Part shown: positions 57,301 through 60,300 of the stretch, in pieces
How the letters are laid out: each line of letters opens with the position of its first letter
Numbering within the stretch: position 1 is the first letter of the stretch
Origin: Tubulanus polymorphus
Lineage: Eukaryota > Animalia > Nemertea
Direction: 5' to 3'
Assembly (NCBI RefSeq): GCF_964204645.1
Contig: NC_134029.1
Span: 18,594,950 to 18,658,949, forward strand
DNA length: 64,000 nucleotides
The notes under the pieces: generated by a model
What the model was told of the DNA's origin: nothing
Databases searched by the model: none
The model's input: the letters and a program-made list of their open reading frames with translations, nothing else
Program-made: the position numbers and the translations under genes

Positions 57301-60300
57301 TAGAATAAACAATCTTATAACTTTTTGCGTTGATATCATTGGTTAATCCCTTTTTCCAGGAATTAGAAAGGCAAAAGAAGGCCAAGAAAAAGGCCGCTAG
57401 AAAAAAGCTCAAGAAGGAAAGTGTACAAAAAATCGATTTCGATCCGGCTAGACTGAAGATGACTGTTTCATTAGTCGACATAAAATCAATCGAATCGAAA
57501 CAGAAACAGAAAGAAGAGCAATCCGCGAAAGACAAAGAGGAGCATATTGCTGGACTACAACAGGTCGGGCAGGAGGACGAAACTGTAAATAAATCAGAAG
57601 CTAGTGTTAAAACAGCGGTTAGTAGAAACAGCGTTAAAAGTCGGAATAGTATTAATAGTGCCAAAAGTAAAAAGAGTGCTGTGATAGATAACATTGTGAC
57701 GACTAACAATAAATCACCAACTAAAACAAAGCCGAATTCGGCGGCCAATAAGTCTCCACCGAAAAGTCGACCATCCGAAACTGATTCTCCGTCTAAAAAG
57801 AACTCTAAGAAAGTGTCAGTGAAAATCGCGCCAGTGTCGAACGCATCTTCCAGTACGGGTACGAAAAAGGGTAGTCCTCAAATTAGTAAATTAACTAAAA
57901 GCACTAGTCATGATAATAACCCGAAACCGTACGCTACACCGGTAGATTCGGGTATGGGCAGCACGGACCGACTGATAGAAGCGTTGGACGCCATCGAACA
58001 GGGCGGTGTTACGAATCCCTGTTACGTATCGGACGACAACGATGACAAAACTGCGAAATACGACAGGACTTCCGAGGATTCGGGCAGCAGTTCCCGTCCG
58101 TCTCCGAATCACTCCTCCGGTGAGAGACCGACGCCGAAACACGGACCGGCGAAAGTTGATTCTAAAACTCCGCACGAGTCGTTTTCTCGCTCACACACCG
58201 TTAACATTCCCAGTGCACAAGTTTCAATATCTAATACCAGACCACCTCTTACTAAACGTGACAGCGAGGTAAGTTACGTTTTTCTTTTAGTGTTGACGAT
58301 GTGAAGTCAAAAGTAACAGTGAAACGGTGAAAGCACCTTAATCCACTCGGTAAACAGTAGTAGGCCTTGCACGAAATGATCGACTGAATTCACGTTTGAT
58401 TTTGTTAAACGTTGAACAATATTCAATATAGTTATCAATATGATAACGTATTTTGCTCGATACTGAGATCCGTTGTTTTTTGTTTTTGTTTCAGCTGTCA
58501 TCGAATTTTGACGATGGCCAAAGCGAAGAATCTGATGGACAATCAGTTGTTGTTGTCGACGGTACTTATGATTATTTTTCCTGCTCATTATTTTCTCCGT
58601 CATCCGTTTTGATTCTTTCATCAAAAACCTTCGCGGTTCTTTGATGCTCCTAGAGGAGGGCCACAAATACTTTCGATGTGCCCTATAGTCATCTCTAGAC
58701 ATGATTGCTTTTATGTACGTCGATAAAACCAGACGGCGAGTTCCAAAAATAGCTGGGAACTACAGTTCATTACTCCAAGTGTATTGTTTACAGCCGTATT
58801 AAAAATATTAATTAGTTCTTCTTTGATTGAAGATAAGGACAGAGAATGGAAGGATAGGAACTGCGTAGTCGGCTGTAAAGCATGTTGCAAGACGCATTAT
58901 ATTCCGTGGTTGAGAGTTCAGAATGGGATCTACAATTTCGTTATGGACCCGCTGTTCGAAATGTTCATCATGTTGTGCATAGTTTTAAATACGATGGCTA
59001 TGGCTTTAGAGTTCGAAGGCATGACACCGCAATACCACAAAGGCTTGGAAATAACGAATTACGTATGTGTCCGTTTTATTTGGTAAAAGGGGTGCAATAT
59101 TGCATCCACCTCCACGATATCTTTGGAGTTAACCTTATCAATCTGTAGCATGCTTTGTTGGAGAAAAGAACAGACGTATATTTGGCTGAGCAAGGCTAGG
59201 ATATATAAATTTTGTTATGCAGCATGTTAGAATATCTAATATACGAATTCAATATCACTAATATGTTAAGCTTTGTATTACCGATAGTCAGCGTTTATCA
59301 CGTTTAGATGAGGATTCATTTAGATTAGTACAAGAAAGCTTGTTATTAATTGCTTGGATATAGTTGCATGCATTTTTATATTAGCAACGCTTCGGTCTTA
59401 AAGGATCTCGTGGGTAGGCACGCATTTAACAGCTTCGTATATATCAATCACTGTTGCTTTTTCAGGTTTTCTCGGGGATATTCATCCTCGAAGCCATCTT
59501 GAAAATAATGGCAATGCCTAGACTGTACTGGAAAAGTGGATGGAATATATTTGATTTTATAATTGTGTTAGCTAGCATTTTGGATCTTGGCTTGACCAAC
59601 GTAGCGGCTGGCCTTAGCGTTATTCGTGTCTGTCGGCTGGTAAGTGACCTGCGTGTTGTTCAAACTCGGAAATTTCTTTTTCTAGATCTTCTCCGGGATC
59701 TTTATTCTCGAAGCCATCCTAAAAATCCTCTCAATGCCACGGATATACTGGAAAAGCGCTTGGAATGTCTTCGATTTTGTCATAGTGCTAGCCAGTATAC
59801 TGGACTTCATTATGGGTCAAATCGAACATGTAACTAACGCTGGGTTAGGTGTTGTAAGAGTTTGCCGACTGGTAAGTCAGTAGATGATAGTTTAGCGCCG
59901 CAGTTGTCTTTAACATCGGGGAACCTTGTCAACGTCGACTACAAAAGGATTTTAGTTGCTAGAAGCGTTATTGTATCACGCTTTCCATATAGTTAAGCTA
60001 CAACAGCTGAACTAAGTGTATCCCCTAGGATAAATCTGATAGTATTGGGGTACCCCCTCGCCATCGTTTGATGCAGTCTCTAGACTTGGGGATGTCCTCT
60101 CGATAAATTGTAGTTTGTTTATGTTCCATGTACACCGTACAATATCTATTGAATAAAACTCATTCATACCACTTGTGAGTGTATCCGGTCGTTGCAACCA
60201 GTATTCACAAATTATTAGGACTATATTTGGAACTGCTCTAAATTCTTCATCTTAATGTACTAAAAATATATGAATAAAATGCATTTAGGGCAACATCTAA

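What the first reader, a model, noticed from the sequence alone, without database searches (positions are those of the whole stretch)
59466..59871. Tandemly duplicated, likely mutually exclusive exons give a Nav2 channel two alternative domain II voltage sensors
Seen: two adjacent paralogous exons (174 and 186 nt, both phase 0-0, both with a pyrimidine tract + AG and a GTAAGT donor, no stops) encode the same DII S2-S3-start of S4 segment. Many differences are synonymous (TCG/TCC, ATA/ATC, TTC/TTT, TTG/CTA), which suggests both copies are under protein-level constraint. The real divergence is in the extracellular S3-S4 loop: [14 protein letters not shown] versus [18 protein letters not shown] (4 extra residues, adding E and H). 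Known: mutually exclusive exons in Nav1 channels sit in DI S3-S4 (vertebrate 5N/5A), DIII S3-S4 (SCN8A 18N/18A, Drosophila para k/l) and DII S4-S5 (para c/d). The DII S3-S4 paddle is neurotoxin site 4. Inference: this may be an independent splice switch in a Nav2-type channel that tunes gating, pH sensitivity or gating-modifier toxin binding. I am not aware of it being described.
Basis: partly seen in the sequence, partly recalled or inferred. Interest (0 to 1): 0.88.

Follow-up and report, generated by a model that had tools for sequence, protein, structure and literature searches.

The report
Two voltage-sensor exons in ribbon-worm channel
A ribbon worm's Nav2 ion-channel gene carries two intact copies of the exon for one voltage sensor, a conserved short-loop copy and a derived long-loop copy, and likely switches between them, although only the long copy has been seen spliced into RNA.

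Summary
The window is the Nav2 (DEEA filter) gene of the nemertean Tubulanus polymorphus. Exon A (59466-59639) and exon B (59686-59871) encode the same domain II S2-S3-start-of-S4 segment, have consensus splice sites and are 46 nt apart (other introns of the gene here: 86 nt or more). Synonymous sites are saturated, yet 1 of 50 second codon positions differs, so both copies were kept as protein code. Only B is seen spliced: both RefSeq isoforms and the one spliced run use it; no A junction was found. Unexpectedly the unseen copy A is the conserved one (about zero amino-acid change since the duplication) and B the derived one, with a 17-residue S3-S4 loop against 12 in most relatives. GCAUG (RBFOX-type) motifs cluster upstream of A. 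Best reading (0.72): a mutually exclusive pair, A minor or tissue/stage-restricted, probably tuning gating. Main rival (0.17): A recently silenced. The toxin and pH ideas have no support. No alternative domain II exon in 176 annotated relatives covering the region; none found in print in my searches. A known kind of switch at a new site, in one species.

The parts
36370..63868 (+). Nav2 (DSC1/BSC1-type, DEEA) channel gene, coding part inside the window (N-terminus to domain III S5-P loop; the gene runs off the right end)
   Evidence: Exon map of RefSeq isoform P0006; first exon in frame; filter residues; tree
58833..59062 (+). Upstream constitutive exon: domain II S1 and S1-S2 linker; donor joins either copy in phase 0
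   Evidence: Joint 59062>59686 GT..AG in run X3; exon map
59063..59465 (+). 403-nt intron upstream of exon A with GCATG at 59148, 59222 and 59366 (TGCATG at 59365) and a branch-point candidate at 59429
   Evidence: motif function is inferred
59466..59639 (+). Exon A: conserved, unannotated copy, 58 aa, domain II S2-S3-start of S4, 13-residue S3-S4 loop; no splice junction seen
59640..59685 (+). 46-nt intron between the copies; shortest of 21 introns mapped; its only YTRAY/NTVAY branch candidate (A at 59647) overlaps A's donor; retention shifts the frame to a stop inside exon B
59686..59871 (+). Exon B: derived copy, 62 aa, 17-residue S3-S4 loop with E and H; spliced on both sides and used by both RefSeq isoforms
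59872..60495 (+). 624-nt intron downstream of exon B
   Evidence: Joint 59871>60496 in run X3
60496..60689 (+). Downstream constitutive exon: rest of domain II S4, S4-S5 linker and S5
54972..54986 (+). 15-nt alternative micro-exon in the I-II linker, with two GCATG 131 and 161 nt upstream
   Evidence: Present in RefSeq isoform X2, absent in X1

Best explanation
The ribbon worm's Nav2 channel gene holds two intact copies of the domain II voltage-sensor exon, B is spliced into mRNA, and A is likely a second, mutually exclusive choice used at low level or in certain cells or stages. Shown: the exon was duplicated in tandem; A kept the ancestral-type sequence with almost no amino-acid change while B took nearly all the changes and a four-residue-longer S3-S4 loop. 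Inferred: the 46-nt intron leaves too little room between A's donor and any branch point for A to be joined to B, which matters because an A+B message would stay in frame and escape nonsense-mediated decay. Inferred, more weakly: an RBFOX-type protein bound to the GCAUG motifs upstream of A represses A, making B the main form where that protein is present (nerve or muscle) and A the form elsewhere or earlier. Predicted: the two channels share pore and gating charges and differ in voltage dependence or speed of activation because the S3b helix and S3-S4 loop differ.
For: Constraint: codon-position differences 14/1/29 of 50, pN/pS 0.11. Constraint on A itself: A has the commoner Nav2 residue at 14 of 16 differing columns, B at 1, one tie; ML exon tree gives A a branch of about 0 and B 0.37; simulated neutral decay of 0.1 changes per site leaves A this intact in 2% of 3,000 runs, and 1-3 amino-acid changes on A cap any dead time at 0.04-0.07 changes per site, against saturated synonymous sites. 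A's donor scores 11.9 bits (18 constitutive donors 2.3-11.4) and its acceptor 9.1 (-2.4 to 13.0). Exclusion: 46-nt intron against 86-2,517 nt for the other 20; under-50-nt donor-to-branch distance is the steric criterion in PMC5740500 (passages); no A-B joint in X3, where one contig reads through the intron unspliced. Regulation: 5 of 7 intronic GCATG lie in the two introns just upstream of the gene's two alternative exons (804 of 12,718 nt), P 1.9e-5, first of 1,024 pentamers; RBFOX represses the upstream exon of C. elegans egl-15 5B/5A from the upstream intron (PMC4165533, passages). Gating: splice changes of the S3-S4 loop shift activation in Cav1 domain IV (PMC5279877, abstract).
Against: No transcript with exon A: 0 of 2 RefSeq isoforms, no A junction in the one spliced run among 5 laid, exon A peptide not in the protein collection. 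The rate asymmetry is significant in only 5 of 21 single-outgroup tests, and not with the nearest outgroup, Lineus (2 vs 6, P 0.29). Introns down to about 40 nt are spliced in C. elegans (PMC4165533), and the genome-wide lower limit in Tubulanus is unknown (no genome held). The GCATG test was made after I saw the motif; by dinucleotide shuffle the upstream-of-A cluster alone has P 0.015. No second species with the pair, so no conservation test. No functional data on domain II loops of any Nav2 were found.
Confidence: 0.72

Rival explanations
1. Exon replacement nearly complete: A was the working exon (or one of two) for most of the time since the duplication, B has taken over, and A is now silent but too recently to have decayed.
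For: Only B is seen in RefSeq and in spliced contigs. Decay of up to 0.04-0.07 changes per site cannot be excluded; at 0.02 changes per site 63% of simulated copies still look intact.
Against: It needs the silencing to fall in roughly the last tenth of the pair's history. A's splice sites are among the strongest in the gene. RNA sampling is thin: one spliced run, held as contigs, and RefSeq models that even miss the first coding exon.
Confidence: 0.17
2. A serves mainly as an off switch: use of A's acceptor with the 46-nt intron retained shifts the frame to a stop inside B, so the message is destroyed or gives a truncated channel, like SCN8A 18N.
For: Read-through ends in a stop inside exon B. 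An X3 contig runs from 59383 through A and the short intron into B. Truncating forms are reported for an insect DSC1 ortholog (PMC3805903, Discussion).
Against: That contig also holds 83 nt of upstream intron, so it is unspliced RNA or DNA. A poison role would not keep A's amino acids fixed while its synonymous sites drift, nor keep its donor.
Confidence: 0.06
3. The pair is real and alternative, and its purpose is to change sensitivity to gating-modifier toxins (site 4) or to pH.
For: The loop is the site-4 position by homology (PMC5848165). B adds E and H. Nemerteans carry peptide toxins (search listing).
Against: A's loop has no acidic residue; the honeybee DEEA channel did not respond to PTx-II or the other toxins tested (PMC10983803). 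A single His is no evidence of pH sensing. This concerns the purpose only and is compatible with the best explanation's splicing step.
Confidence: 0.08
4. Both exons are joined in tandem, or the duplication is an assembly artefact.
For: Both lengths are multiples of three, so a joined form would stay in frame.
Against: X3 skips A to reach B. A joined form would repeat S2-S3-half S4 and upset the membrane topology (inference). Copies are only 74% alike in DNA, and contigs of three further runs cover the arrangement.
Confidence: 0.02

Closest known systems
Vertebrate SCN exons 5N/5A (6N/6A), domain I S3-S4
   Same: Tandem duplicated, mutually exclusive exons that change the S3-S4 loop of a voltage sensor; Rbfox motifs nearby (PMC13011093, PMC12772994, passages)
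   Different: Nav1, domain I, ancient and conserved across chordates, both forms documented; here Nav2, domain II, the exon also covers S2, one species, only one form seen
SCN8A 18A/18N, insect para k/l, Blattella G1/G2/G3, Liposcelis 27A-D, domain III S3-S4
   Same: Mutually exclusive exons over S3-S4; G1/G2 change activation and pyrethroid response (PMC3805903, Discussion; k/l recalled)
   Different: Domain III of Nav1; 18N carries a stop, whereas both copies here are open
C. elegans egl-15 exons 5B/5A
   Same: Two exons of 3n length, a very short intron between them, upstream exon repressed by RBFOX from the upstream intron (PMC4165533, passages): the closest model for the splicing mechanism
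   Different: FGF receptor; intron of 14 nt, clearly unspliceable, against 46 nt here; regulation shown there, only inferred here
Alternative splicing of insect DSC1/BSC1/LbSC1 (Nav2)
   Same: Same channel family; small optional exons in linkers, as the 15-nt micro-exon here
   Different: Reported events are in linkers (PMC3805903); none seen in the domain II sensor. The primary DSC1 and BSC1 splicing papers were not read
Cav1 domain IV S3-S4 splice variants
   Same: Splicing changes loop length and shifts activation (PMC5279877, abstract)
   Different: Cav1, domain IV; not tested for domain II of Nav2

Membership tests
Nav2 (DSC1/BSC1/CaV4) channels | DEEA selectivity filter | tested here: met
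   D, E, E, A motifs in P0003; domains I and II lie in the window, III and IV are read from the RefSeq protein
Nav2 (DSC1/BSC1/CaV4) channels | Groups with DSC1/60E and cnidarian Nav2, apart from DEKA Nav1 | tested here: met
   19-row quick IQ-TREE, branch support 100, sister to Lineus; Nav1 rows are unnamed proteins labelled by their filter; the careful search did not finish
Nav2 (DSC1/BSC1/CaV4) channels | Calcium-permeable, voltage-gated current | not testable with these tools
   Needs expression; shown for relatives (PMC10983803)
Mutually exclusive exon pair from tandem duplication | Adjacent homologous exons of like length, same phase, intact splice sites | tested here: met
Mutually exclusive exon pair from tandem duplication | Both copies under protein-level constraint | tested here: met
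   recent loss of A not excluded
Mutually exclusive exon pair from tandem duplication | Each exon found in mature transcripts | tested here: inconclusive
   B yes; A not seen in one spliced run held as contigs or in 2 RefSeq isoforms
Mutually exclusive exon pair from tandem duplication | No transcript joins both | tested here: inconclusive
   No 59639>59686 joint in X3, but contigs drop rare forms; 46-nt intron fits the steric criterion
Mutually exclusive exon pair from tandem duplication | Pair conserved in related species | not testable with these tools
   No animal genomes searchable; no alternative form in annotated proteins
RBFOX-regulated exon | (U)GCAUG motifs in the flanking intron above chance | tested here: met
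   3 upstream of A; post hoc test
RBFOX-regulated exon | Motif conserved, bound, and needed for the splice choice | not testable with these tools
   Needs orthologous introns and a reporter or knock-down
Neurotoxin site 4 receptor | Acidic/aromatic residues in the domain II S3-S4 loop (Nav1.7 F813, D816, E818) | tested here: not met
   A's loop has no acidic residue; B has one E in a longer loop; met for position only

The most novel reading that the evidence does not exclude
An RBFOX-driven cell-type or developmental switch swaps the whole outer half of voltage sensor II in a calcium-passing Nav2 channel, from a short ancestral bilaterian paddle (A) to a newly evolved long paddle (B) that has returned to the loop length of cnidarian Nav2 and Cav channels. 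It would be the first splice switch of voltage sensor II in the sodium-channel family and a natural experiment, on one channel background, in what the shortening of that loop did to gating.
Probability: 0.3. Interest if true: 0.65.

Novelty: new variant of a known kind. Interest (0 to 1): 0.42.

Why it matters
Mutually exclusive voltage-sensor exons have arisen repeatedly in domains I and III of Nav1; a case in domain II, and in the little-studied Nav2 family, would extend that convergence to a third sensor. The pair differs only in S2-S3 and the S3-S4 paddle, so two isoforms test directly how loop length (13 vs 17 residues) sets activation of a DEEA channel. It also flags an exon that the public annotation misses. 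Limits: one species, a well-known kind of mechanism, and no transcript for A yet.

Tried and rejected
No whole genome is held, so no genome-wide intron-size floor and no RBFOX gene check. The run search listed no holder on record as RNA; X5 laid nothing: no evidence either way. X2 and X4 show no spliced joints and carry a linker at GATC sites, so I read them as proximity-ligation DNA (inference). A search for short or partial proteins over the region gave 15 hits among 94 candidates, none A-like; the 50%-cluster search with A gave the B-containing protein first and no closer match among the 150 listed. A scan of 363 proteins with profile hits for two adjacent copies of the exon gave 2 cases, both unrelated artefacts. 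No other duplicated exon in the window's part of the gene. Repeat search between the flanking exons gave 13 direct families and 16 inverted pairs; apart from the exon pair all are 23 nt or shorter, and no docking/selector pairing could be picked without conservation data. dS could not be estimated: NG86 beyond the correction limit, LWL85 and YN00 failed, ML gave 18.8; I treat it only as saturated (6 of 12 four-fold sites differ). The splice-site scores used several intron ends that were off by one or two bases and were replaced. AlphaFold models of the isolated exon peptides (pLDDT 79 and 77, loop blocks 52-73) give S3 as helix 25-49 in B and 25-46 in A: a hint that B's extra residues lengthen S3b, too weak to rest on. 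Earlier scan notes: nothing by sequence or place.

Full report
What it is. The exon B peptide matches at 100% a RefSeq protein of Tubulanus polymorphus, a palaeonemertean ribbon worm. That protein has D, E, E and A at the four filter positions and, in a 19-row tree, is sister to the Lineus longissimus protein inside a group with DSC1/60E and Nematostella Nav2, separated from five DEKA channels with support 100 (quick search). It is the worm's Nav2 gene; its coding exons run from 36370 to beyond the window's end.

The observation. Exon A is 59466-59639 (58 aa) and exon B 59686-59871 (62 aa); both are open, phase 0-0, with AG acceptors and the donor CTG|GTAAGT. They align to domain II S2 to the second S4 arginine of solved Nav channels. 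No other of 20 exon peptides tested has a near copy in the window. One contig of X1 spans the pair with two other letters, neither in A, and X2 and X4 cover 59200-60057 without differences, so the duplication is in the genome.

Constraint. Over 50 alignable codons (first 40 and last 10; the loop was left out because of the gap) differences fall 14, 1 and 29 times on the three codon positions; 23 of 41 same-amino-acid codons differ; pN/pS is 0.11, bootstrap 0.05-0.19. Synonymous distance is saturated and could not be estimated. Against 68 distinct segments from 129 relatives, A has the commoner residue at 14 of 16 differing columns, B at 1, with one tie. A 23-row exon tree joins A and B against all others (UFBoot 98), with branch lengths about 0 for A and 0.37 for B; the pair therefore arose after the split from the Lineus exon that is annotated, and B took nearly all the change. 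Single-outgroup rate tests point the same way in 20 of 21 cases but reach P under 0.05 in only 5, and not for Lineus. A simulation shows that 0.1 neutral changes per site would leave A this intact in 2% of runs, 0.02 in 63%; the bound from amino-acid changes is 0.04-0.07. So A was protein-coding for most of its history, and a recent loss cannot be excluded.

Expression. Both RefSeq isoforms contain B and neither contains A. Of five runs listed, none is on record as RNA; X3 shows 12 GT..AG joints along the gene and is therefore spliced RNA (inference). It has 59062>59686 and 59871>60496, and no joint into or out of A; A is covered only by an unspliced contig, 59383-59715. These are assembled contigs, which drop rare forms, from a single sample, and the RefSeq models lack even the first coding exon, so the blank is weak.

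How exclusion likely works. The intron between the copies is 46 nt; the other 20 introns mapped are 86-2,517 nt. Its one branch-like motif overlaps A's donor, and any branch point in it lies well under the 50-nt donor-to-branch distance used as the steric criterion in PMC5740500 (passages). Both exons are 3n, so decay could not remove an A+B message; in C. elegans the five clusters with unspliceable introns are all 3n (PMC4165533, passages). The same paper puts the worm's floor near 40 nt, so 46 nt is suggestive, not proof. A's splice sites are strong: donor 11.9 bits, above all 18 constitutive donors, acceptor 9.1, within their upper range; its skipping therefore likely needs active repression. 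GCATG occurs three times in the intron upstream of A and twice upstream of the gene's alternative micro-exon: 5 of 7 intronic copies in 6% of the intron length, P 1.9e-5, the top of 1,024 pentamers. I noticed the motif before testing it, and the cluster at A alone has shuffle P 0.015. RBFOX represses the upstream exon of egl-15 5B/5A from this position (PMC4165533) and controls SCN8A exons (PMC13011093, passages; PMC12772994, preprint, passages). This step is inference.

What the switch would do. Gating charges and the conserved S2/S3 residues are the same in both copies. The stretch from the S3 aspartate to the first S4 arginine is 12 residues in 123 of 129 relatives, 13 in A, 14 in Lineus, 17 in B and in four cnidarian-type proteins, 18 in an acoel; B also aligns without a gap in this loop to domain II of Cav2.2, Cav2.3 and Cav1.2. 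B has thus regained the longer loop length. Low-confidence models of the isolated peptides extend S3 by three residues in B. Splice changes of S3-S4 loops shift activation in Cav1 (PMC5279877, abstract) and in cockroach para G1/G2 (PMC3805903, Discussion), so a gating shift is the most likely effect; untested. The toxin idea is weak: A's loop has no acidic residue where Nav1.7 needs D816 or E818 (PMC5848165, passages), and the honeybee DEEA channel ignored PTx-II and other toxins (PMC10983803, passages).

Is it known? Of 214 cluster members examined from 18 groups (nemertean, flatworm, mollusc, arthropod, cnidarian, acoel), 176 covered the region and none showed two forms within one gene; differences were between species or paralogues. 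Seven large clusters were listed only in part (15 each of 16-89 members), and annotated proteins would miss a hidden copy just as RefSeq misses A. Paper searches for mutually exclusive exons with Nav2 (2 papers), DSC1/BSC1 (3), DEEA and domain II (5), IIS3 (0), nemertean sodium channels (53, 20 listed) and this species' genome (2 listed) gave no description of the pair. Passages were read in PMC12732450 (Nav1 only; no mention of exon or splicing), PMC5295241, PMC4436565, PMC6259924 and PMC3805903. The library is open-access only, no supplements were opened, and the primary DSC1/BSC1 splicing papers were not seen.

Verdict. A real, old, constrained exon duplication in voltage sensor II of a Nav2 channel, most likely a mutually exclusive pair with B dominant and A minor or restricted (0.72), otherwise a recently retired exon (0.17). 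It is a known kind of switch at a site and in a family where I found no earlier case, so far in one species and without a transcript for A. Earlier scan notes list similar intact, unseen duplicate exons in other genomes, which makes the pattern less rare. Interest 0.42.

Noticed in passing
window 36370-36837 and 47029-47118: The N-terminal coding exon of the Nav2 gene splices in phase 0 to 47029 and matches the Lineus N-terminus, but both RefSeq isoforms start downstream of it.
   Followed up: partly
window 54972-54986: 15-nt alternative micro-exon in the I-II linker (isoform X2 only), with two upstream GCATG; Lineus isoforms also vary at this point.
   Followed up: partly
window 59797: A>T variant in exon B (Ile to Leu in S3) in runs X1 and X3, not in X2 or X4; no variant listed in exon A.
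   Followed up: no
window 59383-59715 and 59842-60371: In the spliced run X3, unspliced contigs lie across exon A and just downstream of exon B; may reflect slow splicing of the cassette, or DNA in the library.
   Followed up: no
window 59631-59633 and 59863-59865: Both copies have Cys in S4 (RVCRL) where most relatives have Phe, Leu or Met; shared with one Dreissena protein.
   Followed up: no
P0004 and P0005 (Mytilus edulis Nav2 isoforms): The isoforms differ throughout from domain IV S3 to the C-terminus, as if a duplicated 3' part of the gene were alternatively used.
   Followed up: no
window 7230-8255 (-), 16965-18653 (-), about 21018-25374 (+), about 29600-31650 (+): Neighbouring open frames that look like a forkhead (FoxB-type) factor, a DUF229-type protein, an amino-acid transporter and a metaxin-like gene (names recalled from the look of the sequences, not tested).
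   Followed up: no
window about 25580-26040 and 55737-56087: Long (AT)n microsatellites.
   Followed up: no
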